Part shown: one piece after another, positions 1-25,864 of the stretch | Layout of the letters: each line of letters begins with the position of its first letter | Numbering within the stretch: the first letter of the stretch is position 1 | IMG/VR virus record: IMGVR_UViG_2541047896_000017 | DNA: 37,520 nt | Origin: a virus | Lineage: Duplodnaviria > Heunggongvirae > Uroviricota > Caudoviricetes | Reading direction: 5' to 3' (one strand) | Made by a program: the position numbers and the translations under genes | The notes under the pieces: model-generated | What the model was told of the DNA's origin: nothing | The model's input: the letters and a program-made list of their open reading frames with translations, nothing else | Databases searched by the model: none

Positions 1-56
1 GGTATCCGTTCTGCTGAAGTGTCATGGCGTTGATTTTACGGTGACTCTTCGACAGT

Positions 57-83
57 GAAAAGAAAAAAGGCCGCAGAGCGGCC
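57..83 (-). terminator. Putative rho-independent terminator for the minus-strand int-distal operon
   Basis: Plus strand shows A-run then GGCCGC-aga-GCGGCC; on the minus strand this reads as hairpin followed by TTTTTTCTTTTC, downstream of the 193..723 gene. Confidence 0.5.
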
Positions 84-192
84 ATAAACACAAGCAAAAA
101 TCAATAAGTTAGATAATTATCAAAGACTTACAGACACACAAAAACACAGCCAACCACAACAAATAACAGGGATGTGGTCAATTTGTGGATCA

Positions 193-723
193 TCAGCCAA
201 CAAATTTAGCAACAAATACAGCAACCGCCGCCGTGAAAATGGTTGTGCATACTGGCACAATAATGCCACTCCAACGCCACTTCGTATTATCATCAACCTT
301 GTCAAACCGCCGATTCATCTCATCCATAATCTTGTCAAAGCGTTTATCCATCGCTTCGGTAAGCTCACCCTTCAGGCTGTTAATGTCTGATTTGAGCTGC
401 TCTTTCAGGTGAGCTGTATCAGATTTAAGCTCACCTTTCAGATTCGCAATATCGCATTTAAGATCACCTTTCAGATGAGCAATGTCTGCTTTGAGCTCAC
501 CTTTCACCTCACCAACATCAGCTTTGGTTGAGAGGTTTGTAGTGCGTTCAGTAAGCGTCGCAAGGTCGTTTCTTGTTAGCGATAAATCACCTTCGAGCCG
601 CTCAATTCGCCTTTCAAGTTTATCTGACATTCCGCCTCCACTATCACCGCCTCCCCCATCGAAAGAGTTGCCAATGTCCTCACGAATAAGGGTTATGCCA
701 TGCTCACTTTTAGCATATGCCAC
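193..723 (-). CDS. Coiled-coil protein with about five 11-residue repeats (LKGELKxDIAH-like), Gly-rich N-terminus and C-terminal hydrophobic anchor; function unknown
   Basis: ORF track 176 aa; repeats visible in the translation; C-terminal IIVPVCTTIFTAAVAVFVAKFV is a likely transmembrane segment; start abuts stop of upstream gene. Confidence 0.6.
   Translation of the reverse strand: MAYAKSEHGITLIREDIGNSFDGGGGDSGGGMSDKLERRIERLEGDLSLTRNDLATLTERTTNLSTKADVGEVKGELKADIAHLKGDLKCDIANLKGELKSDTAHLKEQLKSDINSLKGELTEAMDKRFDKIMDEMNRRFDKVDDNTKWRWSGIIVPVCTTIFTAAVAVFVAKFVG
385..530. repeat. About 33-bp imperfect tandem repeats (4-5 copies) encoding the 11-residue protein repeats
   Basis: Repeated units atttaagctcacctttcag... 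with 33-bp periodicity visible in the sequence. Confidence 0.6.
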
Positions 724-1131
724 TCAGATTCCCTCCCAAACTATATATCCTTTGTCTCTTGCCCAACAAACAACTGTGTGGGCTGTATATGTGGATGTGA
801 AGCCGCAATAAGAACATGACACTTCATACCGAGTATTGTAGATGTTAATGGGCTCGTTCTCCTTGTGTATGGGAGTGACATATTCCCAATCATTTGAATC
901 ATCATAATCATCAAGTTCAGGGTCTGTGCCGTGAACAACCGTATGTGGAATAAACAAATCTGGGCGCCCACACGAGAGACAAGAGGTTCTGGCTCCTCTA
1001 TCTTTGAGGAATTGAATAAATAATTTGGGCGAAATCTGTTGCAGAACCTGCAAATGCCCACGTTCATTATCATTAAGAGACCTGTCTGCATATGGAAAAT
1101 CATCAAATTTAAGAGGCTTCATATAAGGCAT
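724..1131 (-). CDS. Hypothetical protein with two CxxC motifs (putative zinc ribbon); start overlaps the last codons of int
   Basis: ORF track frame; ATG at 1131-1129; CLSCG and CSYCG motifs; overlaps int stop (1111-1109), implying co-transcription with C and int. Confidence 0.55.
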   Translation of the reverse strand: MPYMKPLKFDDFPYADRSLNDNERGHLQVLQQISPKLFIQFLKDRGARTSCLSCGRPDLFIPHTVVHGTDPELDDYDDSNDWEYVTPIHKENEPINIYNTRYEVSCSYCGFTSTYTAHTVVCWARDKGYIVWEGI

Positions 1132-2101
1132 CTCCAAGGGGATTAAATCTCACCGCATCCTGCAGGTAATCCGGCGCAAGATGGGCATAAATCATCGTTG
1201 TCTGAATCTTTGCGTGCCCCAAAATTTTCTGGAGGGTCAGAATATTGCCGCCGTTCATCATGAAATGACTGGCGAAGGTGTGGCGCAGCGCATGAACAGC
1301 CTAGCCGTCAGGAACATCAGGTGCGACCGTTTTGATGACATCGCGAACCAATGGATAATCCAGCGTCGGAAACACCAGTTTCCCGCCCCGTTTTTTGATC
1401 TTTTCAAACAGGCTTTCAGAAATAGGAACGGTACGGTTTTTGCTGTTCTTCGTTTTTGAAAAAGTGATTCGACAATGAAGAACACGGCGCTGCTCCAGTG
1501 CCGCTACCTCGCCCCATCGCGCCCCGGTCGACAGAAGGATTTCGACAGCCAGCCGTTCATCGGGATTTTCAGCCAGTGCATCCAGCAACTGAACACATTC
1601 AGACTTACTCAGATATCCCATTTCGCGCTCGTTAACCTTCATTCCTTTAAGGCCTTGAACGGGGTTATCGTTAAGAAAATGGCCGGATGAGATGAGTGCG
1701 GTAAACATCGCGCTTAACGCCCCAATCTCTCGATTAATGGTGCTGGGCTGTATCCCCTGCTCTATCCTGGACACACGTAGCTCGGTGAGCATCGTTGTAT
1801 TAAGTTTATGCACACACGGGTCATCCATTGCCTCACTCAAGCGCAGCAATTTAAGGCGCGTGTTATGCCCTGACTTCATTAGCTGGCCGTGGTATTTCCA
1901 CCACAAGTCAATAAGCACTGACAGAGGACGGCGATCAATAGAGTTTCCTTTCCACTCATTGTTATGCTGTTGCGCCAGCACCCACCGCTCATATAAAACT
2001 GCATCCGATTTCGTTTTAAATTTTTTGCGAATGCGTTTGCCTTTACGCCCCTCAGGGCGCATGTCAAGAAGATACCCTCCCGGAATTGATTTTATGCTCA
2101 T
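1109..2101 (-). pseudogene. int: Tyrosine integrase (P2 Int-like) interrupted by an in-frame TAG at 1303-1301
   Basis: N-terminal 266 codons (MSIKSIPGGY...APDVPDG) then TAG, then same frame continues AVHALRHTFASHFMMNGGNILTLQKILGHAKIQTTMIYAHLAPDYLQ..., i.e. the catalytic R/H/Y region lies after the stop. Recalled P2 Int has Gln at this position. Confidence 0.8.
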
Positions 2102-2150
2102 TCGTGAAACCCCAGCGTTACAAGACCACCATGCCCCCAGCGTTCCATGA

Positions 2151-2462
2151 TTAGCCGGGCTGTGTACCAGTCTTGCGGGATTTTTGAGAAGACGATGTGT
2201 TTTCTGGCCCATCAGGGGAGAGAGAGGGACTGATCTGCCCAGCAGCCTCATTTGTTTTTCCCGTCATAAGCCATATAGTGTATTTTTCGAAATCCTTAGA
2301 ATTAATTACGCGATCAACAACGCTTAAACCAACCTCTCTTTTACCGCTCTCATAATTCTTTATAGTTCCGAGATTTATCCCAGTAACATCAGCAAACTCA
2401 GCTTGAGTTAACCCTTCACTTTTCCGTATCTCTTTCAGTTTTTTTTCGTACCCACTTGACAT
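2151..2462 (-). CDS. C: Immunity repressor, P2 C-like
   Basis: 103 aa; HTH segment LTQAEFADVTGINLGTIKNYESG and ..KYTIWLMT.. resemble recalled P2 C; located between int and the divergent early operon. Confidence 0.8.
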   Translation of the reverse strand: MSSGYEKKLKEIRKSEGLTQAEFADVTGINLGTIKNYESGKREVGLSVVDRVINSKDFEKYTIWLMTGKTNEAAGQISPSLSPDGPENTSSSQKSRKTGTQPG

Positions 2463-2553
2463 GGTGGTCTCCAGACGACTAAATTAACCCTAAAAGTCGC
2501 CTAGAGACGACTTTTAGCAACAAATAACCACAGACTGAACAGGTTATCACATC
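2463..2553. promoter_or_regulatory. Divergent early/lysogenic promoter-operator region
   Basis: Intergenic between C (minus) and first early gene (plus); direct repeats AGACGACT at 2473-2480 and 2505-2512; inverted repeat CTAAAAGTCG (2490-2499) / CGACTTTTAG (2508-2517). Confidence 0.55.
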
Positions 2554-2832
2554 ATGACAAAGCTCTTGAACACATACGAGCAAGCGGATTTTGAGCGTTT
2601 GGCGGCGTTCTACCCATACCGCGATGAGCATGGATTACCGGTACTCGAAGAAAGCCTGAAAGATTACGCGAAGCGTACCAATCAAACTGTTAATGCAGTG
2701 AAAAGGCAGGCTGACAGAGCAGCCCTTCCCATCAACCAAGAAGAAAAAAACTCAAAACGTACAGTAAATCTCTTCGCAATTTTCCTGAAAACCATCAGAA
2801 ACGCAGAGAAATACGTGCAGATGACAAAATAA
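2554..2832 (+). CDS. First early-operon gene in the Cox/Apl position; putative small DNA-binding regulator/excisionase
   Basis: 92 aa ORF directly after the operator region, positional analogue of P2 cox; sequence not confidently matched. Confidence 0.45.
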   Translation: MTKLLNTYEQADFERLAAFYPYRDEHGLPVLEESLKDYAKRTNQTVNAVKRQADRAALPINQEEKNSKRTVNLFAIFLKTIRNAEKYVQMTK

Positions 2833-2846
2833 CGAGGTGTCATTTT

Positions 2847-3185
2847 ATGCTGAAGCAACGCCGTAATTTTCGTACCGAAACGGAACGCCAAGCTAACCGT
2901 TTCGCTACCAGCGCATCACGCAGCAACATCCGCTACAGCCTGAGCGAGACGCACGCAACGCCAGATGGCCATACAGTAAAACAAATTGGCGAACACACCT
3001 GGCTGATTGAAAAAGCTGGAATCGTGGTTCACAGATGCCAACGCAACCCATTTACCGGAAACCGCATTTTTGCTCTGAGCAACGGTGACAATCAGTTTGG
3101 ACAGGATTTCACATTGTACGAAGCACTTCGCACGGTTGATCGTCTGCTTCGCGGGCAAAGTTTTATTAAACAGACTGATTTATAA
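2847..3185 (+). CDS. Hypothetical early protein
   Basis: 112 aa ORF with GAGG-type RBS upstream; in the early operon. Confidence 0.5.
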   Translation: MLKQRRNFRTETERQANRFATSASRSNIRYSLSETHATPDGHTVKQIGEHTWLIEKAGIVVHRCQRNPFTGNRIFALSNGDNQFGQDFTLYEALRTVDRLLRGQSFIKQTDL

Positions 3186-3195
3186 CAGGTGCGTT

Positions 3196-3474
3196 ATGAC
3201 CAAAGAGCATGCACAAGGTGTATTTATCCGTTTTATTGATTTTCGCGGTGAACTGTTATTGCGCGCATCAGCTATTGATGGAGTTGTCCCATCAGAAAAA
3301 AATGCAGCTACTTACGTTTATCTGAACGGCACGCGCCTGACCGTAGAACTTCCGTACCAGACTGTACACGGAATCATTAGCGAAGCTGAAAAAGCACGTA
3401 AGATTAATGGCGATGAACCCTATATCGAAATTATTTGTATGGATTCAGAAGCTGAAATTCAGAAAGCAGATTAA
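3196..3474 (+). CDS. Hypothetical early protein
   Basis: In-frame ATG at 3196 within ORF 3085..3474; the first 111 nt of that ORF overlap the upstream gene. Confidence 0.5.
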   Translation: MTKEHAQGVFIRFIDFRGELLLRASAIDGVVPSEKNAATYVYLNGTRLTVELPYQTVHGIISEAEKARKINGDEPYIEIICMDSEAEIQKAD

Positions 3475-3485
3475 AGGGCGTTGCG

Positions 3486-3728
3486 ATGGGCAAAGAATAT
3501 AAAACTCTCATTAACAAAGCACTTGAGCGTTTTTATTTTCGCTTAAGTGCATCAGGTGCTCATGCTGAACGTGCAGCCCGTGACTCATTGACCAGGGCAA
3601 TCCGGAGTCTGTATGACGTGGCTTTTTACGCTGATGATCTGGATGCACTTAACGAACTTTCCGAGCTGATCTGTGCCGCAGAATGCGGGGAACATATTGA
3701 ACCGTATAAGCTGGGGAATATTGCATGA
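3486..3728 (+). CDS. Hypothetical early protein
   Basis: 80 aa ORF, tight spacing in operon. Confidence 0.5.
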   Translation: MGKEYKTLINKALERFYFRLSASGAHAERAARDSLTRAIRSLYDVAFYADDLDALNELSELICAAECGEHIEPYKLGNIA

Positions 3729-3838
3729 GTATATTTATCTCATGGCTTGTCCTGATTATTTCGGTGGTCTGCGCCATTGGGATTATGCAAATTATTCATT
3801 CAGTAAAAAAGATTGAACGCATTTTCACTGGCGAATAA
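3725..3838 (+). CDS. Small hydrophobic peptide (37 aa, single predicted TM helix)
   Basis: ATG at 3725 overlapping the upstream stop (ATGA); translation MSIFISWLVLIISVVCAIGIMQIIHSVKKIERIFTGE; below the 60-aa ORF-track cutoff. Confidence 0.4.
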   Translation: MSIFISWLVLIISVVCAIGIMQIIHSVKKIERIFTGE

Positions 3839-3925
3839 CAGCGCAAATAAAAACCCTAGGTTAAATAAGAAAATGTAAAAACAATCCGCATTCGCGGAGG
3901 TATTCGCACACGCCCAGGAGGCGTA

Positions 3926-4129
3926 ATGGCAATTAAGCATTTTCCTGTCGTTCGTTTCACTTCCAGAGGACGTGAATACGAAGTCGACGAACGCCTGATT
4001 ACCACAATCGACAAACACCGCTCAGAAAAGGATGCACACCACATCTATCTCATTGACGGTACTTACTTCTGCGCCACTAATGTGGCGCGGGTGAATCTTA
4101 TCCGACAGGTACAGGATCCACGCAAATGA
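3926..4129 (+). CDS. Hypothetical early protein
   Basis: 67 aa ORF with strong RBS (caggagg) upstream. Confidence 0.55.
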   Translation: MAIKHFPVVRFTSRGREYEVDERLITTIDKHRSEKDAHHIYLIDGTYFCATNVARVNLIRQVQDPRK

Positions 4130-4344
4130 GCAGGAGAAGAATCACTCGCAGACATCACCGCACACACCTGAATTCCTCAGCAACGCTAAAGGCACTTATT
4201 CAAAGCGAGATCGGTGATTTCTTCGCGGGAGTTGGCTCACCAGGTGAACCAGAAACACCAGAAGCGATGCAGCGTGAGCTCATGATACGCATAGATAACA
4301 CTTTTGATTTCTTCTACAGCATGCACGGCATTAAACAGAAATGA
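4126..4344 (+). CDS. Hypothetical early protein
   Basis: 72 aa ORF, start overlaps upstream stop. Confidence 0.5.
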   Translation: MSRRRITRRHHRTHLNSSATLKALIQSEIGDFFAGVGSPGEPETPEAMQRELMIRIDNTFDFFYSMHGIKQK

Positions 4345-4452
4345 ACCTCAAGCCAGCAATAACTACTCGTAGAACGCCAATTTCTGTAACCGACCGCTTC
4401 TGAGTTTTTTGGCAGGAAGCCTTCGCACATCCTTAGTAGAGAGAATTGCAGC

Positions 4453-4842
4453 ATGATTGACGCTCATGACTTCACAAGATGGGTGCGCACACAGGACACC
4501 CGTCTGGCTCCCATTCTTCGGGGATTATTTGATCTCTACATTCGTGGTCGTGACAACAGAGCACGCACCACAAAACCGGAGAATGTGGATACCCTTTATT
4601 TCACAGTAGACGACTGCTACCGCGTGGACTTCACACCACACGGACTGGCGTTGCACTGCCTGACACCGCACGGCGAATCACTGCTGGCGTATTACGACTC
4701 CCCGGCCTCCGTATTTGCGGCAATGCTGGCGCATCGCACTGCTGGCGGGTGTGCCTCGCTGAGTGAATACACCGCTGAGTTTAACCGCCTTTCCGCCCTC
4801 TTCTCGCAGGAGTGGCAGCGCGTGACGGGATACCAGCCATGA
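4453..4842 (+). CDS. Hypothetical early protein, translationally coupled to A
   Basis: 129 aa ORF; its stop overlaps the A start (ATGA). Confidence 0.55.
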   Translation: MIDAHDFTRWVRTQDTRLAPILRGLFDLYIRGRDNRARTTKPENVDTLYFTVDDCYRVDFTPHGLALHCLTPHGESLLAYYDSPASVFAAMLAHRTAGGCASLSEYTAEFNRLSALFSQEWQRVTGYQP

Positions 4843-7679
4843 GTGAGTTTGCATGGAGCTGGAATGAACCACGGCCAGCCATTGATCCGGCCAGATTTAC
4901 GGAGCGCAGGCAGGAAACTGAAACCGACCTGCAACGCGCCATCCGTTACTACCTTGAGGCAGACAAAAAGGCCCAGGAAGAACAGGAAGCGAAAGAGGAA
5001 GCCTTTTTCGCACAATCCGCCATGGGTAAAAAACTCATGGCATCCCTTGAGGAAGCCGGACAGCGTGAAAAGCTGGCACAAAGCATCATCAGTAAGCGTC
5101 GGGCAACAGAACAAGACCCGGTGGCCCGTGCCTTTGCCACACTGAAGGTGCTTCCCGTTTATCTGCGAGAACCCCTGAGCCGCCACCTCTCGTTCCTGCG
5201 CAAGAAGCAGGAAGCCGATCGTCAGAAAGGCAAAAAGAGCTGGCAGGCCGAACGCTACGCGCGCGGAAACCTGCGCAAAATATTCGAACGTCTGGAGCGC
5301 ACCGACAGCCGCTGGCTGACACAGGGGTATCGCTCCCTTGCCGGACGCGAACGCCTGGACGATTTGCTTTACCTGCCGCAGCTCAACAAACACCAGATAC
5401 AGACGCTGGCCACCATGACGGCGGCGATGTTCAGCAGCACCTTCGAAAAACTCTGCGATGGCTTTGGCGCGACCGATGGTGAGCTGACCATGGATGTAAC
5501 GCTGAAGGCGTATCAGATGCTGGCCCGCATGGCGTTACACCTGCACGCCATGCCTCCACATTATGACGCACTGACAACAGATAGAGATCGGAGGAACGAA
5601 CCGGACACGGAGCTGCTGCCAGGCGCAATCCTTCGCCTGACCTGTGCTGAATGGTGGAAACGCAAACTGTGGCTGTTACGTTGCGAGTGGAGAGAAGAAC
5701 AACTCCGCGCCGCCTGTCTGGTTTCCAGAAAAACATCGCCCTATCTGAGCCAGGACGCGTTAAGCGAGTTTCGCGCACAGCGCGAGAAAACACGCGATTT
5801 CCTGAAAAGTTTCATGCTGGAAAACGAAGACGGGTTCACGATTGATCTCGAGACAGTGTATTACGCGGGAGTAAGTAACCCGGTTCACCGTAAGGCAGAA
5901 ATGATGGCCACCATGAAGGGGCTGGAACTTCTGGCCGAGGCCCGTGGCGACAAAGCGGTGTTTCTGACTGTCACCTGCCCATCAAAATACCACGCCACAA
6001 CAGAGAACGGTCATCCGAATCCCAAATGGAACGGGGCCACCATGCGCGACTCCAGCGATTACCTGGTTAACACGTTTTTTGCGGCGGTCCGCAAAAAACT
6101 GAACCGCGACGGTCTGCGCTGGTATGGCATCCGCACGGTGGAGCCTCACCATGACGGCACCGTGCACTGGCATATGATGGTCTTTGCTCATCCGGAAGAA
6201 ATCGACAGCATCGTGGCCATCACCCGCGATATTGCCATTCAGGAAGACCGCCACGAGCTGGGCAATGATATTACTCCGCGCTTTAAGGTGGAGTATGTCG
6301 ACGGCTTAAAAGGCACACCAACCAGCTATATCGCGACCTACATCGGAAAAAACCTGGACAGCCGCGCCGTGGATGGCATCGACCCGAAAACGGGCAAACC
6401 ACGCGTTGACCACGAAACCGGAAAATCAATGGCCGAGAGCGTGGAGCGCGCCATCGGCTGGGCGCGCCTTCACCGGGTCCGCCAGTTCCAGTTCTTTGGC
6501 ATCCCCTCCCGTCAGGTGTGGCGTGAACTGCGCCGCCTTGCCAGCCAGATGGCACGCAACCCGGAAGGCCCGCAACGGCTGAAGGATGACGCAATGGATG
6601 CGGTACTCGCTGCCGCTGATGCCGGGTGTTTTGCCTCCTACATTGAAAAACAGGGTGGCGTACTTGTTCCACGCAAGGACTACCTGATTCGCACCGCCTA
6701 CGACCTCGCAGATGAGCTGAACGATTACGGCGAACAGAGCGTACAGATTTACGGGATCTGGTCACCACTCATCGGGGAATCCTCCCGTGTGTGCACGCAC
6801 CCAGATAACTGGAAGCTGGTAAGACGTAAACCGGAAGCGGAAGACAGCACCCGCGAAAATGGTTTTGACCTTCAGGGCGGCCCTGCCGCCCCTTGGACTC
6901 GTGGCAATAACTGTCCCCGTGTACAGGAAACGGACAACAACGGGACAGAACAGCCGGAAGAACGGCCAGCACCGCGGCCGCAGCTTCCTGACGGCGTTGA
7001 CGTGAATGAATGGATGCGCTCACTGAAACGGCACGAACGCCGGGCGCTGATGCATTCGCTGCGTGACAAACAGGCAAAAAACAGCAGTGATGAAATGCAG
7101 AACTGGACACAGAGCCGCAAACAGCCACGGCCTTTGCCTGATAACCACGAGTTACTCGCTAAAGAATGGCGGGAGTCTGCTGAATCTCTCGGCCTGCATA
7201 TCGGTGAACAGCAGATGCAGCACCTGTTACGGGGCGGCAGTCTGTACGTTGACGGCAGCATCATTGCACCGCAGGGATTTGAAATTGTACGCAAACCAGA
7301 TACCCGCCCGGACAGCCGAATCACGCAACTCTGGCAGCGCCTGAGCCGTAATCACGGCGTAAGCAGCACGGAGATCCGCCATAACCCGGTCGCCAGCTAT
7401 CTGGAACAGCTGGGGGCATCAGACCCCGAAGCCGCCGCACACCTGGCATCCACACTTCAGCAGGACCAGAACACCATGAAAACCCCCGTTACCGTGCTTT
7501 CTGACATGCTGCGCGCCATCCGTGACGCAGAGCACGCACAGAGAATCAGTGAAACCACTGAACGCGCCCACCGCAAAGCAGACCTGCTGCGGGGTAGCCT
7601 GACCAGTGGAAACAAAAAACAGACAGAAACGGGACTCACAAATCCCGTAAATGAGCAAAAAACGTGCCGCGATATATGA
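4839..7679 (+). CDS. A: Rolling-circle replication initiator endonuclease, P2 A-like, with long C-terminal extension
   Basis: Contains TVEPHHDGTVHWHMMVF (HUH-like) and YIATYIGKN (paired tyrosines), matching recalled P2 A motifs; about 946 aa versus about 760 in P2. Confidence 0.85.
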   Translation: MSEFAWSWNEPRPAIDPARFTERRQETETDLQRAIRYYLEADKKAQEEQEAKEEAFFAQSAMGKKLMASLEEAGQREKLAQSIISKRRATEQDPVARAFATLKVLPVYLREPLSRHLSFLRKKQEADRQKGKKSWQAERYARGNLRKIFERLERTDSRWLTQGYRSLAGRERLDDLLYLPQLNKHQIQTLATMTAAMFSSTFEKLCDGFGATDGELTMDVTLKAYQMLARMALHLHAMPPHYDALTTDRDRRNEPDTELLPGAILRLTCAEWWKRKLWLLRCEWREEQLRAACLVSRKTSPYLSQDALSEFRAQREKTRDFLKSFMLENEDGFTIDLETVYYAGVSNPVHRKAEMMATMKGLELLAEARGDKAVFLTVTCPSKYHATTENGHPNPKWNGATMRDSSDYLVNTFFAAVRKKLNRDGLRWYGIRTVEPHHDGTVHWHMMVFAHPEEIDSIVAITRDIAIQEDRHELGNDITPRFKVEYVDGLKGTPTSYIATYIGKNLDSRAVDGIDPKTGKPRVDHETGKSMAESVERAIGWARLHRVRQFQFFGIPSRQVWRELRRLASQMARNPEGPQRLKDDAMDAVLAAADAGCFASYIEKQGGVLVPRKDYLIRTAYDLADELNDYGEQSVQIYGIWSPLIGESSRVCTHPDNWKLVRRKPEAEDSTRENGFDLQGGPAAPWTRGNNCPRVQETDNNGTEQPEERPAPRPQLPDGVDVNEWMRSLKRHERRALMHSLRDKQAKNSSDEMQNWTQSRKQPRPLPDNHELLAKEWRESAESLGLHIGEQQMQHLLRGGSLYVDGSIIAPQGFEIVRKPDTRPDSRITQLWQRLSRNHGVSSTEIRHNPVASYLEQLGASDPEAAAHLASTLQQDQNTMKTPVTVLSDMLRAIRDAEHAQRISETTERAHRKADLLRGSLTSGNKKQTETGLTNPVNEQKTCRDI

Positions 7680-7755
7680 AGCGCGCACAAAACAGGCAAA
7701 AGCGGGATTTAAAAATCCTGTAACCGATTAATTAATCAACATAAGGAAAAGCGAC
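7631..7755. promoter_or_regulatory. Candidate parC-like centromere/promoter region upstream of parM
   Basis: Two copies of AAATCCyGTAA (about 7645 and 7709), each inside a short palindrome (ACGGGA..TCCCGT; GGATTTAAAAATCC). Confidence 0.3.
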
Positions 7756-8715
7756 ATGAAAATTTGTATCGACGACGGCTCCACCAACATCAAGCTGGCA
7801 TGGACTGAGAACGGCGAACGCCGCAACGCCATCAGCCCGAACAGCTTCAAGTCGGAATGGTCTGCGCCGTTCGGTGGCACGCAGCCCGCGAACTACATGC
7901 TTGATGGCGTGCGCTATGGTTTTGATCCGGTCAGCGATCGCTTTGTCCAGACGACCGACACGCAATACCAGTACAGCGATGTGAATATAATTGCCATTCA
8001 TCACGCGCTGGTCAAATCAGGCATCACACCACAGGAAGTGGATGTGGTTGTCACCCTGCCACTAAGCGAGTATTTCGATACAAACGCACAGCCGGACATG
8101 GCCAACATCAACCGCAAAAAAGCGAACGTCATGCGCCCGGTGGAGTACCAGAACGGCGAAGCATTCACTATCCGTAACGTACGGGTTATGCCTGAATCCA
8201 TTCCGGCTGGCTTTAAGGCACTGGCTGACATGAGTCCGTTTGAATCCCTGCTGATTGTGGATTTGGGCGGAACCACGCTGGATGTGGCAAAGGTTCAGGG
8301 GCAACTGGCAGGTATCAGCCAGGTGTTTTGCGATCCACACGTGGGCGTTTCTCTGATGGCCGATGCCGTACTGTCGGTGATGGCCACTAACGGTATGCGC
8401 ACCAGTCACCACATCGCCAATACCATTATCGAACATCGCCATGATGAAGCCTGGCTGCGCCAGCACATCCACAATGACGCGCATTACGCCAGCCTGATGG
8501 CGGTAATTCGTGAAAAGGAAGAAACACTGAAACAACGCGTGATCCGCGCGCTGGCGGGTTTTTCGGGTTACGGGCGGGTGATGGTTGTCGGTGGAGGGGC
8601 GGAGATTGTGGCACCCGCTATCCGCGAAGCCTGCGGAGTTAATGCGACTTTCATCGCGGACGGGGTGCCACAGTTTGCTCTGGTTAATGGGCTGTACGCA
8701 ATGGACAAGGAGTAA
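7756..8715 (+). CDS. parM: Actin-like segregation ATPase, ParM/StbA family
   Basis: 319 aa; N-terminus MKICIDDGSTNIKLAW and motifs VMPESIPAGF, LLIVDLGGTTLD, VMVVGGGAE closely resemble recalled plasmid R1 ParM. Confidence 0.8.
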   Translation: MKICIDDGSTNIKLAWTENGERRNAISPNSFKSEWSAPFGGTQPANYMLDGVRYGFDPVSDRFVQTTDTQYQYSDVNIIAIHHALVKSGITPQEVDVVVTLPLSEYFDTNAQPDMANINRKKANVMRPVEYQNGEAFTIRNVRVMPESIPAGFKALADMSPFESLLIVDLGGTTLDVAKVQGQLAGISQVFCDPHVGVSLMADAVLSVMATNGMRTSHHIANTIIEHRHDEAWLRQHIHNDAHYASLMAVIREKEETLKQRVIRALAGFSGYGRVMVVGGGAEIVAPAIREACGVNATFIADGVPQFALVNGLYAMDKE

Positions 8716-8719
8716 ACCA

Positions 8720-9031
8720 ATGACGACTCCAACCAGACGGATAAGTTTCTATCTGAAGCCCACCGCCGTCAAGAACGAAGGAGAAGCATGCGCCTGGCTG
8801 GACAGCCTTACACCAGAAGCCCGCAAAAGCGGCCAACGCGTGGCTTTTCTGGCCGGGCTGGCACTTCTGAAAATGAATCCGGCAGAGGCTTATCGACTGG
8901 CTGCATGGGCTGGTGATGAAGCGTTATCAGTGACACAAACCAGGACAGAACGCCCCGCATCACAGCCAGTATCAACCGCACAGATAACCAGTCAGATGGC
9001 CGGAAATATCCGGGCGTTATTTCCTGAATAA
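8720..9031 (+). CDS. parR: ParR-like centromere-binding adaptor
   Basis: 103 aa immediately downstream of parM; N-terminal RRISFYLKP...LTPEARKSGQRVAFLAGLALL resembles recalled R1 ParR. Confidence 0.6.
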   Translation: MTTPTRRISFYLKPTAVKNEGEACAWLDSLTPEARKSGQRVAFLAGLALLKMNPAEAYRLAAWAGDEALSVTQTRTERPASQPVSTAQITSQMAGNIRALFPE

Positions 9032-9094
9032 CACAACATCAGGGCGAGTTCGCCCTGCTCTCCACCTCAGAACATAAACAAGGAGAACGACTTA

Positions 9095-9685
9095 ATGAGC
9101 GAAATCAACTATCAGGCATTACGTGAACGTTATTCACCTGTGCCAGTACCGAAATGCCCTATTTGCGGCGAGGAAATGTCAATTCAGCGAATATCTGGAG
9201 CACAGGTTGTTTATGCCTGCTCCGGTTATGGTGATGATGGAGATTTCAAAATTGGCCGAACTCTTGCTGACGAACATTATGAAAAATCACGCGTAACAGT
9301 GTTGGATGTCGGGGATCCTGAAGTATTGGCGCTACTTGATTGGCTGGAAACCAAAGACAACCGAATCGCTGAACTGGAAAAAATCGCCACTGACTATGCA
9401 CTTAAATTCCAGAAAGCACAGGACGCATTAAAGCATGCCGCTTTGCTGCATAGCAGGACGGCGCAACAAACAAATAATTTTGCAGTATCGCTTCCGGACA
9501 TAAGCGAATATTTCATTAATGACGTATTTCAGCCCTTGCGATACGAGCGGGATGTTGAAAGAGCCATCATAAAGGCTGGCGGAAAAGCATTGTGGCAGGA
9601 GAAACACGAGGACAGAACGCATCAGTCATGCGATGTAAATTGTGGATGGTTTAGCCCACTGACGACAGATAAAAATAACACCTGA
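9095..9685 (+). CDS. Hypothetical protein with N-terminal Cys cluster (possible zinc ribbon); accessory gene between A and Q
   Basis: 196 aa ORF with RBS aaggaga; CPICGEEMS...YACSGYG motif. Confidence 0.55.
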   Translation: MSEINYQALRERYSPVPVPKCPICGEEMSIQRISGAQVVYACSGYGDDGDFKIGRTLADEHYEKSRVTVLDVGDPEVLALLDWLETKDNRIAELEKIATDYALKFQKAQDALKHAALLHSRTAQQTNNFAVSLPDISEYFINDVFQPLRYERDVERAIIKAGGKALWQEKHEDRTHQSCDVNCGWFSPLTTDKNNT

Positions 9686-9689
9686 TCCC

Positions 9690-10175
9690 CCTCAAACCAG
9701 GGCGATAATCGCACATCGCCCTGCTGCACAATAGTGCACAAATTTGCACAATTTTTTTGAACGAATTTTTGCCCTTCCAGCCCGCGTGGCGGCTGGATCC
9801 GTCAAGGATCCGTGCGTGCACAAAAAAACGCGCTTTTTCTGCGCGCAGGTGACGGGGGAACAGCCCGCGTTTCAGGGGGTAAATAGCGTTCCCTTAACGA
9901 TGTCGCAGCGACACGACAGAATGGCCGTATTTCTCACGCTGAGCGTGAAAAATACGTGAGGGATTCTGATTTGATGGGGTGAAAGGTAAGGCCGTCAAAA
10001 TCGCACTGAGGCGGCGAGAACATGCAGTCAACGCGGTGGGATTGCGTAAGAGTCTGACCGTCGATGGTGGCGATAAACTGGAAGGCGTCGTGAAATTATC
10101 TGACTGATACAGGAGCTGGAGAGTCGGGGCATAAATTTTTTATGCCCCGGCGAAGCAGCAGACAAGCGAAGCGCG
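9690..10175. other. Non-coding region expected to contain the cos packaging site
   Basis: In P2, cos lies adjacent to the 3' end of Q; region has GTGCACAA repeats, GGATCC palindromes and a 22-nt palindrome at 10126-10147. Exact cos not identified. Confidence 0.4.
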
Positions 10176-11222
10176 TCAGGATGTGGGCTGGATGTCTAAC
10201 AGTGCGTAAGGGTTAAAGCGGATCACCTCTTCGCCAAGCCAGTCATTGATGTGCTTCATGGCCTCCATGACGGGCATCAGCTCGTTAATTGCGTAAACCC
10301 GCGCGGCCTTCTCCACATCACCAAACGCACTTTTTTCACCCGGCATCGCCCCCATCAGTTGCGGCGGAACGCGGTGCGCAGCCAGCACATCATCACGGGA
10401 TGCCGCTTTAACATTCATGAACTCATCCTTTGCGGTGATCTGCTGGAACGGCAAAATTTGCACCCCCTCTTTGCCCCCGTTGGGCGCATGAATGAGCACG
10501 TTTTTAAACGCACCACCACCACGCGCACCCTGTAGCGTTTCTTTCAGGGAGTCCATGCTTTCGCGGTTTACCTGCGCTGCACCGATGTAGATGATGCACC
10601 CGGCGTGGGATCCGTTGTCGTAATACAGTTTTCTGAACATGTCCGCCGAATGAGACAGGCTGGCCGAGAGTAATGCGCCGAGATATTCCGGCATGCCGTA
10701 GATTTCCTGGTTAATGTCAGGATTCATCAGGTGACACACTTTGCCTGGGCGAAACTGAAACGCATCCTTGCCATCCTGCACATACCACCATGATTCAAGA
10801 TCGCTTCCGCGTCGCATGTATTTCGCCAGGGCGTGCCGTAATTTAAGCGGTTCGCCGAGCATATTGCTTCGAAGCTCAAGGAATGCGTTACCGAACACAA
10901 ACCAGTCCAGCGCCAGCGCCGAGAAATCCTGCCGGGAAAGCAGCGGGTGCGGGATGTAGCAACCGAGTAATACATTGCGCTTAAAGTAAAGCGCAGATTG
11001 ATGCCAGGACGTTTGCCGGGCAGCTCTTGCCAGACCGTACCAGTCCACCGGGGTTTCATACCACCGCCCGTTATCAGCACAGTACATATTGTCCAGCAGG
11101 TCATGCCCGGTCAGGCGGTAAGGACCATCAAATGTGAATGCACTGAGCGATGATTCTTTCCTGAGCGCATCAGCGAGATCAATGCGTGAACTCATGCGCA
11201 CTTTTTTATTTTTTCTGCTCAT
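10176..11222 (-). CDS. Q: Portal protein, P2 Q-like
   Basis: 348 aa, downstream of terminase ATPase gene on the same strand; size and position match P2 Q. Confidence 0.8.
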   Translation of the reverse strand: MSRKNKKVRMSSRIDLADALRKESSLSAFTFDGPYRLTGHDLLDNMYCADNGRWYETPVDWYGLARAARQTSWHQSALYFKRNVLLGCYIPHPLLSRQDFSALALDWFVFGNAFLELRSNMLGEPLKLRHALAKYMRRGSDLESWWYVQDGKDAFQFRPGKVCHLMNPDINQEIYGMPEYLGALLSASLSHSADMFRKLYYDNGSHAGCIIYIGAAQVNRESMDSLKETLQGARGGGAFKNVLIHAPNGGKEGVQILPFQQITAKDEFMNVKAASRDDVLAAHRVPPQLMGAMPGEKSAFGDVEKAARVYAINELMPVMEAMKHINDWLGEEVIRFNPYALLDIQPTS

Positions 11223-12973
11223 CAGAACTCCATAACCGTGAAACGCTCGTTTTCTCCTTCGCCGCCAATCGGTTCGTTAATGACAGCAAGCATGGTTGCC
11301 CACGCAAGGTCGCCGTGGCTAATCCCCCTCGCGCGGTCCGTTTCGTAAGTGATAAAGCCGCCCGGTGTTTTCACCTTACGCACGGCGTTAAAGGCCGCGA
11401 CCAGCTCGCGTTCGGCGCGATCGTATTCCCACCGCCCGGCACGCATTATTTGCAGCATTTTCAGTACCAGCGACCGTTTTGATGACAGCGTGAAGGTGTA
11501 CGGAATAGCTGCAGGGAAAAACCGTTTCACTATCTGATAAACAGCCTCCCCGTTCCCGCCCGTCACATCAATGCCGATGTGTTCCACGTTGTAGCGACAC
11601 GTGAACTCTTCAATGACTCTGGCCTGTTCTTCAAACTCCAGCCCCTGAACGCGTCGCGTCTCCACCGTTCGAAAACGGCCACCAGGAACAGACGGAGGAA
11701 CCACCACGGACACAGCGCCGCTGTCGCCGTTGCCACTGCTGCCGTTTGCGTCATACCCAATCCATACCGGACGATTCCCCATCGGGCGGGGAGCAAAAGG
11801 TTTCCAGTCTTTCCAGTCGTCGTATCCGTCAACGCCGCAGCCAATCAGGATATTCAGGTTAAATGCCGATTCCCCTTCGCGGACAAACTCACACATATAG
11901 AGATTGAGGAACTCGTCTTCGGTGTTTTCATCACGAATTTCGTCGATATCGGTGTGTTTCCAGCCGTGATTAACCACATCTTCCAGCGTGACAATTTGCC
12001 GCCACGTCCGGTCAGGGCAGATAAGCCCGTTATGCAGCGTTTTCCAGTCCACAGAAAAACGCTGGCGTTTATGCGAGGCCTTTTTCTCGTTCCAGCGGTC
12101 GCCGTTCCAGTAGGCGTATGCCTCGTGCGTTTCGGTGGATGGCGTGGAGAAGTAGGTGCGCCGCAGTCCGCTGAGGGTTGCCATAGCGCCAGCCACCTTG
12201 CGCAGTTCAGCAAAGCGACTGACCCAGAAAAATTCATCAAAATAAAAATTGCCCGTATAGGACTGTGCCGACGCAGCAGAAGTGCCGAGAAAATGCAGCT
12301 CTGCGCCGTTGGAGAGGATGATTTTATCGCCCCCTTTCAGCTCCACATCAACTTCAGCCGCGGCCTTCTGAATAATGCTTTTAAACTGGAACGCCTGACG
12401 ACGCGACGCAGACAAAAAAATCTGGTTACGCTGGTAAGGTTGCGCCACATCGTCACGCAGCGCCATCAGCAGTGCTTCCTGTGCAAAATACCAGGTCGCC
12501 CCAATCTGTCGGGATTTCAGGATCATCCTGTTACGTATCCCGGCTTCCCTGCAAAGGGTCAGGGAGTCAAACCAGCCCCGCTGATGCCACTCCAGCCTGC
12601 TGATGATTTTTTCCCGCAGTGCGGCAATCTGTTCCGGCGTGAAATGATTTTTGAGTTTTTTCGCCCGGCCTTTCTTTCCTGCGGCCATCACATCCGGCTG
12701 GCCATCATGCAGCTTTTTAAGCTGCCGGGTCAGCAGGTCTATTTCCTTAAAGTCACCGCCTGTTTTATTCTGTTTTTCAGTAAGCTGGATGAGGCGCGCA
12801 TCGATGGACTGCGTGACACGCTGCACGGGTGGCGTTTCATCCCACTGGTCACGTTTTTTCCACGCATAAATCGTGTTCGGGTTTATTCCCATCAGACGTG
12901 ATATTTCTGCGGGCGGATAACCCTGCCAGTAAAGTTGCCGCGCACGCTGGCGCACAAAAGCGTCCTGAATCAT
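11222..12973 (-). CDS. P: Terminase large (ATPase) subunit, P2 P-like
   Basis: 583 aa with N-terminal HTH-like segment; divergent from the O-N-M-L operon as in P2. Confidence 0.8.
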   Translation of the reverse strand: MIQDAFVRQRARQLYWQGYPPAEISRLMGINPNTIYAWKKRDQWDETPPVQRVTQSIDARLIQLTEKQNKTGGDFKEIDLLTRQLKKLHDGQPDVMAAGKKGRAKKLKNHFTPEQIAALREKIISRLEWHQRGWFDSLTLCREAGIRNRMILKSRQIGATWYFAQEALLMALRDDVAQPYQRNQIFLSASRRQAFQFKSIIQKAAAEVDVELKGGDKIILSNGAELHFLGTSAASAQSYTGNFYFDEFFWVSRFAELRKVAGAMATLSGLRRTYFSTPSTETHEAYAYWNGDRWNEKKASHKRQRFSVDWKTLHNGLICPDRTWRQIVTLEDVVNHGWKHTDIDEIRDENTEDEFLNLYMCEFVREGESAFNLNILIGCGVDGYDDWKDWKPFAPRPMGNRPVWIGYDANGSSGNGDSGAVSVVVPPSVPGGRFRTVETRRVQGLEFEEQARVIEEFTCRYNVEHIGIDVTGGNGEAVYQIVKRFFPAAIPYTFTLSSKRSLVLKMLQIMRAGRWEYDRAERELVAAFNAVRKVKTPGGFITYETDRARGISHGDLAWATMLAVINEPIGGEGENERFTVMEF

Positions 12974-21391: not shown

Positions 21392-24049
21392 ATGAGCACG
21401 AAATTTAAAACCGTTATCACTACTGCCGGAGCCGCGAAGCTGGCAGCCGCCACTGTCCCCGGCGGGAAAAAAGTAACTCTGTCTGCAATGGCCGTGGGTG
21501 ACGGTAATGGCAAATTGCCGGTGCCGGATGCCGGTCAGACGAAACTGGTGCATGAGGTCTGGCGTCACGCTCTGAATAAAGTCAGCGTGGATAACAAGAA
21601 TAAAAACTATATCGTGGCTGAACTGGTTGTACCGCCAGAAGTGGGCGGCTTCTGGATGCGTGAGCTGGGTCTGTATGACGATGCCGGAACACTGATTGCG
21701 GTCGCTAACATGGCGGAAAGCTATAAACCTGAACTCGCTGAAGGCTCCGGGCGCGCGCAGACCTGCCGCATGGTTATTATTGTCAGCAACGTGGCGTCCG
21801 TTGAGCTGAGTATTGATGCCAGCACAGTGATGGCGACGCAGGATTACGTCGATGACAAAATCGCAGAGCATGAGCAATCCCGCCGCCATCCTGACGCCAC
21901 GCTGACAGAAAAAGGTTTTACTCAGTTAAGTAGCGCAACAAACAGCACCAGTGAAGAGCTGGCGGCAACGCCAAAGGCAGTAAAAGCAGCCTATGACAAT
22001 GCTGAAAAACGTATGCAGAAAGACCAGAACGGTGACGATATTCCAGATAAGGGCGCTTTTCTGGACAATGTTGGCGTTACCAGCCTGACGTTTATGAAAA
22101 ACAATGGCGAAATGCCGCTTGATGCTGACTTGAATACATTTGGTCCCGTTAAGGCTTATCTTGGCATCTGGTCTAAAGCAACATCCACCAACGCAACACT
22201 GGAGAAAAATTTCCCGGAAGATAATGCTGTCGGTGTGCTTGAGGTTTTTGCAGCTGGCAATTTTGCAGGCACGCAACGTTTTATCACGAGAGACGGCAAT
22301 GTATACATGCGTAAACTCGCCAATAAGTGGAATGGCACTGATGGTCCGTGGGGCGTATGGCGTCACACTCAATCAGCTACCCGCCCTTTGAGTACGACTA
22401 TAGACCTGAATACGCTTGGAGCCGCTGAGCATCTTGGTTTATGGCGTAACAGTAGCTCGGCTATAGCTTCATATGAACGCAATTATCCAGAGGAAGGCGG
22501 CTTTGCTCAGGGGACGCTTGAGATCCTCGAAGGCGGGAATTATGGAAGAACGCAACGTTATACCACTCGTCGTGGGAATATGTACGTTCGCTGCCTTGCG
22601 GCAAGCTGGGATGCATCAAATCCGCAGTGGGAACCGTGGTTAAGAGTCGGTCATCAGTCAGAGAGCCGTTATTACGAAGGTGATTTGAATGTTCTAACCG
22701 ACCCCGGTATTTACAGTGTTACAGGAAAGGCGACAAACGGTCCGATGCTGGACGCTGCTGGGGCGACATTGCTTGGGATACTGGAAGTAATCAGGCGTTT
22801 TGATGGTGTATCTGTCTGGCAGCGTTACACAACCACAGGAAAATCAGAAACCACACAGGGGCGCACTTTTGAGCGCGTCTACGCCGGGAGCACATGGACC
22901 GAATGGCGAGAAGTGTATAACTCCTTTTCGTTGCCCCTGAATATGGGGATCGGTGGCGCAGTGGCAAAACTCACCAGCCTGGACTGGCAGACCTACGATT
23001 TTGTGCCGGGCAGTCTGATAACCGTTCGGCTTGATAACATGACCAATATTCCCGACGGTATGGACTGGGGCGTCATTGATGGCAACCTGATAAACATCGC
23101 TGTTGGTCCGAGTGATAATTCCGGTACGGGGCGCTCAATGCATGTATGGCGCAGCACTGTAAGTAAAGCGAATTACCGCTTTTTTATGGTTCGCATTTCA
23201 GGAAATCCGGGAAGCCGCACGATTACGACAAGACGTGTGCCAATTATCGACGAAGCTCAGACATGGGCGGCGAAACAGACATTCAGCGGTGGTCTTTCTG
23301 GCGAACTATCCGGCAATGCTGCTACAGCAACAAAGCTGAAAACGGCAAGGACAATTAACGGCGTAAAATTTGACGGCTCGGCAAATATTGAAGCGTTTCC
23401 GCCAGGTGTTCCGCTGCCGTGGCCATCAGATACTGTGCCGTCTGGTTACGCCCTGATGCAGGGACAGACTTTTGATAAATCTGCATACCCGAAACTTGCA
23501 GTCGCTTATCCGTCAGGCGTGATCCCGGATATGCGTGGCTGGACAATCAAGGGCAAACCCGCCAGTGGTCGGGCCGTATTGTCTCTGGAACAGGACGGCA
23601 TTAAATCGCACACCCACAGTGCCAGCGCATCCAGTACGGATTTGGGTACGAAAACCACATCGTCGTTTGATTACGGTACTAAATCAACGAATAACACAGG
23701 TGCACATACCCACAATGTATCTGGTACTGCAAATAGTGCTGGCGCACATACTCATACCGTTCCATTAAGGAGACCAAACAGTGGCGGTATGAATTTCGAC
23801 TGGCTGGATGGTGCATCAAGTGGCACGGTGGTGGGGAATGGAACTGTGCCTTCTTCTGGCGCACATACCCACTCAGTATCAGGTACCGCTACAAGTGCTG
23901 GGGCACATGCACACACTGTTGGTATTGGCGCTCATACGCACTCTGTTGCGATTGGTTCACATGGACACACCATCACCGTTAACGCTGCTGGTAACGCGGA
24001 AAACACCGTTAAAAACATCGCATTTAATTATATTGTGAGGCTTGCATAA
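21392..24049 (+). CDS. H: Tail fibre protein, P2 H-like, with internally triplicated domain and His-rich C-terminal repeats
   Basis: 885 aa; conserved N-terminus [20 protein letters not shown]...; three DLN(T/V)(F/L)-initiated repeats of about 85-90 aa; C-terminal GAHTH repeats. Confidence 0.85.
23698..23976. repeat. Imperfect direct repeats encoding GAHTH(S/N)VSGTA(T/N)SAGAH motifs
   Basis: Two copies of about 57 bp (near 23698 and 23857) plus shorter GAHTHxV units. Confidence 0.6.
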
Positions 24050-25193: not shown

Positions 25194-25363
25194 AAGATAA
25201 TCATGTGACCAATTATTGTAATAATTTTAATGGTATGTTTCTACTGGCTATCCAGCGTGTCTGATGTCCAGTAACAAATCGTTAACACTGGTGCAATCAA
25301 ATGGTGAGTGTTAAGACTGGCCACTTATTACCAGGTATGAGGGTATGAGTGGCCAGCATTAAA

Positions 25364-25858: not shown

Positions 25859-25864
25859 GACTCC

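What the first reader, a model, noticed from the sequence alone, without database searches (positions are those of the whole stretch)
1109..2101. Integrase interrupted by an in-frame amber codon upstream of its catalytic residues
The Int frame runs 266 codons, hits TAG at 1303-1301, and continues in the same frame through AVHALRHTFASHF...MIYAHLAPDYLQ to the stop at 1111-1109. Recalled P2 Int has Gln here (..MGQATHALRHSF..), so a single CAG-to-TAG change would explain it. The truncated product lacks the His/Arg/Tyr catalytic region, so integration and excision should be abolished unless the codon is suppressed or it is a sequencing error.
Basis: partly seen in the sequence, partly recalled or inferred. 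Interest (0 to 1): 0.55.

Follow-up and report, generated by a model that had tools for sequence, protein, structure and literature searches.

The report
Amber-stopped integrase in P2-like prophage
A single C-to-T change at a known E. coli mutation hotspot (a Dcm methylation site) has put a stop codon in the integrase gene of an otherwise intact P2-like prophage, so the prophage can probably no longer cut itself out; this is real but ordinary prophage decay.

Summary
The minus-strand integrase frame (2101..1109) has an in-frame TAG at 1303..1301, codon 267. It lies upstream of H270, R273, H296 and Y305.

P2 Int and every relative examined have Gln/CAG at this position. One IMG/VR contig is identical to window 1-3681 except for this one base.

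The change is not a sequencing artefact. Independent short-read re-assemblies (Logan SRR786137, SRR17651263) give identical DNA with TAG.

The ancestral sequence is CCAGG, a Dcm site, and the mutated base is its inner, methylated cytosine. Of 117 possible single-base nonsense changes in this gene, this is the only one of the 5-methylcytosine deamination type. The same TAG also occurs on a second, different prophage background (SRR14053697).

TAG is not recoded: it ends gpX normally, the window holds no tRNA gene, and no other prophage gene matched to a P88 or strain 2D protein carries an in-frame stop.

The element is a 37.7-kb Xuanwuvirus-like prophage between btuC and ihfA. It has one further lesion, an IS5 in a cargo gene.

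Verdict: a recent nonsense pseudogene that probably locks the prophage in place. This is a known kind of event, of low interest.

The parts
1109..2101 (-). int pseudogene: a P2-family tyrosine integrase frame of 330 codons plus stop, interrupted at codon 267
   Evidence: Translation. Pfam Int_N plus Phage_integrase. Best solved-structure matches are P2 integrase 5c6k/5dor and HP1 integrase 1aih. 99.4% identical to the intact Int of strain 2D.
1301..1303 (-). Premature amber codon TAG at codon 267; Gln/CAG in all relatives
   Evidence: CAG in 82/82 aligned relatives and Q in 81/81 translated relatives. None of 292 complete E. coli genomes carrying this 61-mer matches the TAG version exactly.
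1300..1304 (.). Destroyed Dcm site. The plus strand reads CCTAG (coding strand CTAGG). The ancestral sequence is CCTGG/CCAGG, and the mutated base is the inner, Dcm-methylated cytosine.
   Evidence: It is the only one of 117 possible single-base nonsense changes in int that is a Dcm inner-C deamination. Literature on lacI amber hotspots at Dcm sites: PMC12606429.
1304..2101 (-). Truncated ORF of 266 codons. It keeps the arm-binding N-terminus, the Int_N core-binding domain, catalytic R195 (1519..1517) and the beta-hairpin Lys.
   Evidence: Deposited as a 253-aa product from Met14 (EQX82946.1).
1109..1300 (-). Orphaned 3' part of int. It encodes H270 (1294..1292), R273 (1285..1283), H296 (1216..1214) and Y305 (1189..1187). 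It is still identical to intact relatives.
   Evidence: There are no differences from strain 2D or L030 downstream of the stop.
59..83 (.). attL core, 25 nt: AAAGAAAAAAGGCCGCAGAGCGGCC. It is a copy of the ihfA terminator hairpin. Host DNA lies to the left of it.
   Evidence: Every E. coli genome matches window 1-83 or 1-61. The same 25-mer is found at the attR of strain CH427 and on both sides of the strain 2D prophage. A 25-nt duplication is reported for SE11 PP_SE11-4, which sits between btuC and ihfA (PMC2608844). The attR of the source scaffold matches 24/25 and lies about 262 nt beyond the window end.
2151..2462 (-). Intact C-type immunity repressor, directly upstream of int on the same strand
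   Evidence: Pfam HTH_3. phrog_147. This exact protein is widespread, indexed in 11,473 blocks of the collection.
2554..2832 (+). Intact Cox-like gene, the probable excision directionality factor and switch protein
   Evidence: phrog_11533 at E 1e-56 and a weak match to phrog_575 'Cox-like excisionase and repressor'. 87% identical to its counterpart in strain 2D.

Best explanation
The window is a roughly 37.7-kb P2-like (Xuanwuvirus/P88-like) prophage of E. coli, integrated at the ihfA terminator between btuC and ihfA. Its integrase gene has suffered one recent C-to-T transition. The change hit the inner cytosine of a Dcm site (CCAGG to CTAGG), most likely by deamination of 5-methylcytosine that escaped very-short-patch repair. 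It converts Gln267 (CAG) to amber (TAG).

Translation now ends after 266 residues. The product keeps its DNA-binding domains and Arg195. It lacks His270, Arg273, His296 and the nucleophilic Tyr305, so it cannot cleave or rejoin DNA. The prophage can therefore no longer excise or re-integrate by its own means, and it is inherited vertically as a locked ('grounded') prophage.

Shown here: the stop, its ancestral state, its private and recent nature, the Dcm context, read-independent confirmation, and the intactness of the matched phage genes. Inferred: the deamination mechanism, the loss of recombinase activity and the loss of excision.
For: The stop and the frame are in the sequence.

The ancestral state is CAG:
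- 82/82 aligned relatives have it, and 81/81 translated Int relatives have Gln.
- P2 and P88 Int have Gln at the aligned position.
- The 35-mer with CAG occurs in 77 IMG/VR contigs. The TAG version occurs in no viral, genome-representative or metagenome contig.
- None of 292 complete E. coli genomes carries the TAG version.

The mutation is recent:
- L030 differs from window 1-3681 only at base 1303.
- The int haplotype is otherwise identical to three CAG-bearing loci.
- There are no changes downstream of the stop.

The mutation is real:
- The Logan re-assembly of SRR786137 is 100% identical to window 1-12062, with TAG.
- The Logan contig from SRR17651263 is 100% identical to window 1-3214, with TAG.
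- The truncated product is deposited as EQX82946.1.

The site is a hotspot:
- This is the only one of 117 possible nonsense changes in int that is a Dcm inner-C transition.
- Dcm sites were the amber hotspots in lacI (PMC12606429).
- The same TAG sits on a different int haplotype and prophage background in SRR14053697.

There is no systematic artefact. The window keeps 65 CCWGG sites. Every other Dcm-site difference is shared with relatives. There are no private indels.

Catalytic residues were mapped against the P2 Int and HP1 Int structures. The P2-family replication, head, tail and lysis genes matched to P88 or strain 2D proteins are full length without stops.
Against: - Whether the host methylates Dcm sites cannot be checked from the window, so deamination is inferred from context only.
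- SRR786137 may be the same read set that produced the deposited assembly. It would then exclude an assembly error but would not be an independent sequencing of the base. SRR17651263 and SRR14053697 are separate runs.
- The second TAG (L099) could have arrived by a recombination patch of at most 378 bp rather than by a second mutation.
- No excision assay exists. Low-level read-through of UAG by near-cognate tRNAs, which insert Gln among other residues (PMC4333366), could still yield traces of full-length Int.
Confidence: 0.9

Rival explanations
1. Sequencing or assembly artefact: the genome really has CAG. One version of this rival is a Nanopore miscall of 5-methylcytosine at the Dcm motif.
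For: The site is a Dcm motif. Dcm motifs made up about 70% of consensus errors with default ONT models (PMC6591954). No complete E. coli genome carries the TAG.
Against: Logan short-read re-assemblies from SRR786137 and SRR17651263 give byte-identical DNA with TAG, and SRR14053697 has TAG on another background. Only 1 of about 66 Dcm sites in the window is affected. All other Dcm-site differences are shared polymorphisms. There are no private indels or frameshifts in 14.4 kb of well-covered sequence. The source assembly's protein accessions are in the EQX series; from my own knowledge, not checked here, that series dates from about 2013, before ONT-only assemblies.
Confidence: 0.02
2. The amber is functionally silent or only attenuating. 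A host amber suppressor (for example a supE-type tRNA-Gln, which would restore the wild-type residue) or natural UAG read-through supplies enough full-length Int for excision.
For: A Gln-inserting suppressor would recreate exactly the wild-type protein, because the ancestral codon is CAG. Near-cognate decoding of UAG in E. coli inserts Gln, Tyr, Trp, Lys and Glu (PMC4333366). The codon after the stop starts with G, not the termination-enhancing U (PMC5289835). The 3' part of the gene is still pristine.
Against: The window holds no tRNA gene. From my own knowledge, not tested here, suppressor alleles are a feature of laboratory K-12 lines rather than clinical or wild isolates, and basal UAG read-through is typically well below 1%. 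The pristine 3' part is equally expected from a very recent mutation.
Confidence: 0.05
3. Programmed recoding: TAG is read as a sense codon in this phage, or the stop is a conserved regulatory read-through site.
For: None beyond the in-frame continuation.
Against: TAG ends gpX at the same place as in phage P88, and also ends the HetE-N gene. Stop usage in the window is 20 TGA, 17 TAA and 2 TAG. No other gene has an in-frame TAG. The stop is absent from 82/82 relatives, so it is not conserved. No suppressor tRNA is encoded.
Confidence: 0.005
4. The truncation is selected. The catalytically dead but DNA-binding 266-aa Int is kept because it locks a useful prophage in place, or because it interferes with the integration or excision of related incoming phages. 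On this reading the same stop arose twice because selection favoured it.
For: The same TAG sits on two prophage backgrounds. The truncated product retains the arm-binding and core-binding domains. The TAG lineage is seen in more than one sample.
Against: Recurrence is fully expected from the Dcm hotspot alone. The allele is rare: 0 of 292 complete genomes. The defence-like cargo gene that would make locking advantageous is itself broken by IS5. Nothing shows that the truncated protein is stable.
Confidence: 0.04

Closest known systems
Bacteriophage P2 integrase (tyrosine recombinase; PDB 5c6k and 5dor) and HP1 integrase (1aih)
   Same: The domain order is the same: arm-binding N-terminus, Int_N core-binding domain, catalytic domain. 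With Gln restored at codon 267, the protein is 45% identical to P2 Int and matches it at E 9e-81. The R..K..HxxR..H..Y residues and the Gln before HALRH are conserved. The gene lies downstream of the C repressor, as in P2.
   Different: The site specificity differs: a 25-nt core in the ihfA terminator between btuC and ihfA. Two cargo ORFs lie between int and attL. No record in the INPHARED phage collection has an Int more than 57% identical. Here the gene is broken by an amber codon.
Dcm-site (CCWGG) 5-methylcytosine deamination hotspots: the lacI amber hotspots of Coulondre, Miller, Farabaugh and Gilbert, 1978
   Same: The change is the same one: CCAGG to CTAGG at the inner cytosine, turning a CAG Gln codon into amber. 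It recurs on an independent background. Deamination-type polymorphisms at other Dcm sites are common among the relatives, for example at window 2736 and 3856.
   Different: Here it is a natural allele in a prophage gene, not a selected laboratory mutant. The Dcm and Vsr status of the host was not testable.
Grounded or defective prophages with inactivated integrase or excision functions (reviewed in PMC6379469; modelled in PMC7744054)
   Same: A single inactivating lesion in a mobility gene of an otherwise complete prophage, plus an IS insertion in cargo. This is the expected first step of prophage decay or domestication.
   Different: The stage is very early. The matched replication, structural and lysis genes and the att cores are still intact. 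The prophage could probably be rescued by Int supplied in trans.
Xuanwuvirus P88 and related P2-like E. coli prophages at btuC-ihfA (for example SE11 PP_SE11-4)
   Same: Late genes are 94-100% identical in protein to P88. ParM/partition genes sit at the old/tin position. There is a hok/gef gene near attR. The integration site and the 25-nt duplication are as in SE11.
   Different: The Int (43% identical) and the C repressor (35% identical) differ from those of P88. There is no tail-fibre invertase segment. The cargo at the D-ogr hotspot is different.

Membership tests
Tyrosine recombinase / phage integrase (P2 Int type) | Significant match to the Phage_integrase catalytic domain and the Int_N core-binding domain | tested here: met
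   PF00589 at 71.7 bits (cut-off 27.1) and PF24624 at 99.8 bits (cut-off 27), on the frame with the stop read as Gln. P2 Int structure 5c6k matches at E 9e-81.
Tyrosine recombinase / phage integrase (P2 Int type) | Catalytic residues Arg, Lys, His-x-x-Arg, His and Tyr present at the aligned positions | tested here: met
   R195, K218 region, H270, R273, H296 and Y305 all align with P2 and P88 Int. They are encoded in the DNA but are split by the stop.
Tyrosine recombinase / phage integrase (P2 Int type) | One uninterrupted reading frame that places all catalytic residues in one polypeptide (a functional member) | tested here: not met
   TAG at codon 267 separates R195 and the Lys from H270, R273, H296 and Y305. 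By descent this is an integrase gene; in function it is a pseudogene.
P2-like prophage (Peduoviridae, Xuanwuvirus-like) | Full set of P2 hallmark genes in P2 order: A, Q, P, O, N, M, L, X, lysis genes, R, S, V, W, J, I, H, G, FI, FII, E, T, U, D and ogr | tested here: met
   tblastn with all P88 and strain 2D prophage proteins gives full-length matches without stops, mostly 94-100% identical. The megablast search returned P88-like phages among its best hits.
P2-like prophage (Peduoviridae, Xuanwuvirus-like) | Flanking att core repeats at a defined chromosomal site | tested here: met
   The attL core is at 59-83. attR lies outside the window. In the 100%-identical source scaffold L096 it matches 24/25, at window-equivalent 37782-37806.
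Dcm 5-methylcytosine deamination hotspot mutation | The ancestral sequence is CCWGG and the change is C-to-T at the inner cytosine | tested here: met
   Ancestral CCAGG in 82/82 relatives, CTAGG in the window.
Dcm 5-methylcytosine deamination hotspot mutation | The host has an active Dcm methyltransferase, so the cytosine really was methylated | not testable with these tools
   The dcm and vsr genes are not in the window. Most E. coli carry them, according to PMC4924334's abstract (for K-12) and my own knowledge, but the source genome was not examined.
Dcm 5-methylcytosine deamination hotspot mutation | Recurrence of the same change in independent lineages | tested here: inconclusive
   L099 carries the same TAG on an int haplotype 9 sites away and in a different prophage background. 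A short recombination patch of at most 378 bp is not excluded.
Programmed stop-codon read-through or TAG reassignment | The stop is conserved among relatives, or in-frame TAGs occur in many genes, or a suppressor tRNA is encoded | tested here: not met
   0/82 relatives have the stop. No other in-frame TAG is present, and TAG is used as a true terminator. The window has no tRNA gene.

The most novel reading that the evidence does not exclude
The same Gln267 amber arose, or was retained, twice because selection favours it. On this reading the 266-aa product binds att DNA but cannot cut it. It would both lock the resident prophage in place and act as a dominant-negative factor against related phages that use the btuC-ihfA site. 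The Dcm hotspot would then serve as a ready-made 'domestication switch'.
Probability: 0.04. Interest if true: 0.4.

Novelty: already known. Interest (0 to 1): 0.15.

Why it matters
For annotation, this int should be marked as a pseudogene. The prophage should be scored as complete but probably non-excising, which affects predictions of inducibility and gene mobility for this strain. As biology it is a clean natural example of two textbook processes meeting: 5-methylcytosine deamination at a Dcm site, and the first step of prophage grounding. It opens no new question.

Tried and rejected
(1) Sequencing artefact at a Dcm motif. I compared every CCWGG site in the window with up to 82 relatives. 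Only this site has a private deamination-type change, and there are no private indels. I then found independent short-read assemblies carrying TAG. Rejected.

(2) TAG recoding or a suppressor tRNA in the phage. Stop-codon usage, the absence of other in-frame TAGs and the absence of tRNA genes all argue against it. Rejected.

(3) General decay of the prophage. A tblastn search with all P88 and strain 2D proteins found no other stop. The only other lesion is an IS5 in a cargo gene.

(4) Exact look-up of the 266-aa product found nothing. The deposited gene model starts at Met14, and the 253-aa version succeeded.

(5) Three further 'hits' to the 253-aa product (L101-L103) turned out to be genes cut by contig ends. 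Where the base is present, they carry C, the wild-type allele. They are not TAG carriers.

(6) Exact-pattern scans for the TAG 35-mer in viral, genome-representative and metagenome collections were all empty.

(7) A repeat search for attL/attR within the window found nothing. This is because attR lies beyond the window end.

(8) PADLOC gave no credible defence-system match for the cargo genes.

(9) The first literature search for the Dcm amber hotspot gave mostly irrelevant papers. A second search found the review that was used.

Full report
**1. The observation.** The minus strand between 2101 and 1109 encodes a P2-type integrase frame. It has 266 sense codons from ATG (2101..2099), then TAG at 1303..1301, then 63 further in-frame codons (AVHALRHTFASHF...MIYAHLAPDYLQ...) to TAA at 1111..1109.
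- With the stop read as Gln, the protein matches Pfam Int_N (E 1.6e-28) and Phage_integrase (E 8.4e-20).
- Its best solved relatives are the P2 integrase structures 5c6k and 5dor (E 9e-81 and 3e-53) and HP1 integrase 1aih.

**2. What stood there before.**
- An intact 330-aa integrase in E. coli strain 2D differs from the window gene at only six of 993 bases. Four are silent, one gives P250S, and one is the C-to-T change that makes the stop.
At the DNA level, 82 of 82 aligned relatives read CCTGG on the plus strand.
- A 61-base probe centred on the stop finds 292 complete E. coli genomes, and none matches perfectly.
- The exact 35-mer with CAG is present in 77 IMG/VR contigs. The TAG version is absent from the viral, species-representative and metagenome collections.
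- Ten further assemblies that encode the identical C repressor all have CAG.

**3. How recent.**
- IMG/VR locus L030 is identical to window 1-3681 except for base 1303.
- Leaving that base aside, the window's int haplotype is identical to three CAG-bearing loci.
- Nothing has changed downstream of the stop. The lesion is therefore very young.

**4. Real or artefact.**
- Looking up the IS5-truncated neighbour protein identified the source: NCBI assembly GCA_000460675.1, scaffold KE701938.1. It is 100% identical to window 24183-37520.
- The 266-aa product is not on record. The 253-aa model starting at Met14 is on record as EQX82946.1.
- Logan re-assemblies made directly from short reads reproduce the TAG. 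SRR786137 contig 17 is 100% identical to window 1-12062, and a contig from SRR17651263 is 100% identical to window 1-3214.
- The site is a Dcm motif, and such motifs are notorious for Nanopore consensus errors (PMC6591954). I therefore compared all Dcm sites. The window keeps 65 CCWGG sites, and every other Dcm-site difference is shared with relatives. Only this one is private. There are no private indels.
- An artefact is therefore very unlikely.

**5. Mechanism of origin.**
- On the coding strand the ancestral sequence is GGC CAG GCT. It contains CCAGG, and the mutated base is the inner cytosine that Dcm methylates.
- Deamination of 5-methylcytosine gives thymine. This was the basis of the lacI amber hotspots (Coulondre et al. 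1978, as reviewed in PMC12606429).
- The intact gene allows 117 single-base changes to a stop, of which 25 are transitions. Exactly one is a Dcm inner-C deamination, and it is the one observed.
- The same TAG also occurs in SRR14053697 (L099). That prophage has a different repressor/cox region and a different gene downstream of int. Its int haplotype differs from the window's at nine sites on both sides of the stop, and its nearest CAG relatives are only two sites away.
- This points to a second independent hit at the hotspot, although a recombination patch of at most 378 bp cannot be excluded.
- Deamination-type polymorphisms at other Dcm sites are visible among the relatives, for example at window 2736 and 3856.
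- Whether the host is Dcm-positive could not be tested.

**6. Consequence.**
- Alignment to P2 and HP1 Int places Arg195 and the beta-hairpin Lys before the stop, and His270, Arg273, His296 and Tyr305 after it.
- A tyrosine recombinase without its nucleophile and half of its active site cannot cleave DNA. This is established knowledge of the family, applied here by inference.
- The next in-frame ATG (1261) would give only a 50-residue peptide lacking HxxR.
- The prophage should therefore be unable to excise by itself.
- Everything else needed is still there:
  - C repressor and Cox-like gene.
  - All replication, head, tail and lysis genes, full length against the functional phage P88.
  - The attL core at 59-83.
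  - In the source scaffold, an attR core matching 24/25 at window-equivalent 37782-37806.
- The integration site is the ihfA terminator between btuC and ihfA. It has a 25-nt duplication, as reported for SE11 prophage PP_SE11-4 (PMC2608844).

**7. Rivals.**
- *Recoding* is excluded. TAG terminates gpX and the HetE-N gene, no other gene has an in-frame TAG, the stop is not conserved, and the window has no tRNA gene.
- *Suppression or read-through* cannot be excluded without the host genome. A Gln-inserting suppressor or near-cognate tRNA-Gln would even restore the wild-type protein (PMC4333366). The +4 base is G rather than the termination-enhancing U (PMC5289835). Natural isolates rarely carry suppressors, and basal UAG read-through is low (my own knowledge).
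- *A selected, dominant-negative truncated Int* is possible. It is not needed to explain the recurrence, given the hotspot.

**8. Comparison and novelty.** The gene is an integrase of the P2 family by descent, and a pseudogene in function. The event matches two known phenomena: Dcm-site amber hotspots, and the early grounding of prophages by loss of mobility genes (PMC6379469 and PMC7744054). Nothing here lies outside known kinds.

**9. Verdict.** The finding is real, recent and mechanistically well explained, but ordinary. Interest 0.15.

Noticed in passing
window 33011-34205 (transposase ORF 33157-34137, minus strand); interrupted gene 32417-33010 plus 34206-36408: A 1195-bp IS5-type element is inserted into a 930-aa cargo gene. 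The element has DDE_Tnp_1 and DUF772 domains, GGAAGGTGCGAATAAG terminal inverted repeats and a CTAA target duplication. The broken gene lies next to a HetE-N / 'GapS6a family' gene at the D-ogr hotspot. Relatives such as strain CH427 lack the insertion. It is a second private lesion of this prophage.
   Followed up: yes
L099 (Logan SRR14053697) 6163-6924: The same Gln267 amber occurs in a different prophage of the same integrase family. That prophage has a different C/cox region and a different gene downstream of int, and its int haplotype is 9 sites away. This is either a recurrent hotspot mutation or a short recombination patch.
   Followed up: partly
window 724-1122, minus strand: A 132-aa ORF with CxxC...CxxC motifs whose ATG overlaps the end of int by 14 nt. 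It matches phrog_4293 (E 2e-30), a family of unknown function, but is not annotated in the RefSeq record of the near-identical strain 2D prophage. If it is translationally coupled to int, the amber could be polar on it.
   Followed up: partly
window 193-723, minus strand: A coiled-coil protein (CCDC90-like / DUF1640) with a C-terminal hydrophobic tail lies between int and attL. The cargo at this position varies among relatives: most share DNA with the window only from about 1124 onward.
   Followed up: partly
window 59-83, and source scaffold L096 (window-equivalent 37782-37806): The att core is the ihfA terminator hairpin, GGCCGC-AGA-GCGGCC followed by a T run. attL and attR differ at one loop base (AGA versus AAA).
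   Followed up: yes
window 2736, 3856 and 2655 (among others): Several Dcm sites are polymorphic among related prophages in the deamination direction: CCAGG/CCAAG, CCAGG/CTAGG and CCTGG/CCTAG. This suggests that Dcm-driven transitions are a general source of variation in this prophage family.
   Followed up: partly
window 1109-2101 (the Int protein): No record in the INPHARED phage collection encodes an Int more than 57% identical. Yet this Int type is present in about 290 complete E. coli genomes and 77 IMG/VR contigs. The btuC-ihfA integrase class appears to be known only from prophages.
   Followed up: partly
window 7756-9685: ParM-like and plasmid-stability (partition) genes, plus an Ead/Ea22-like gene, occupy the position where P2 carries tin and old.
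   Followed up: no
window 24630-25193, minus strand: A hexapeptide-repeat (LbetaH) acyltransferase-like gene sits after the tail-fibre assembly gene, where P88 carries the invertible tail-fibre segment and a DNA invertase. The window has neither of those.
   Followed up: no
window 23699-23920: Imperfect direct repeats of 33-63 nt inside the tail-fibre gene H. They encode repeated Gly-Ala-His-Thr-His-like motifs.
   Followed up: no
L101, L102, L103: Three unrelated assemblies have contigs that end within two bases of the variant position. Where the base is present they carry the wild-type C. This may be a selection effect of the exact-product look-up, or a graph branch at a polymorphic site.
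   Followed up: partly
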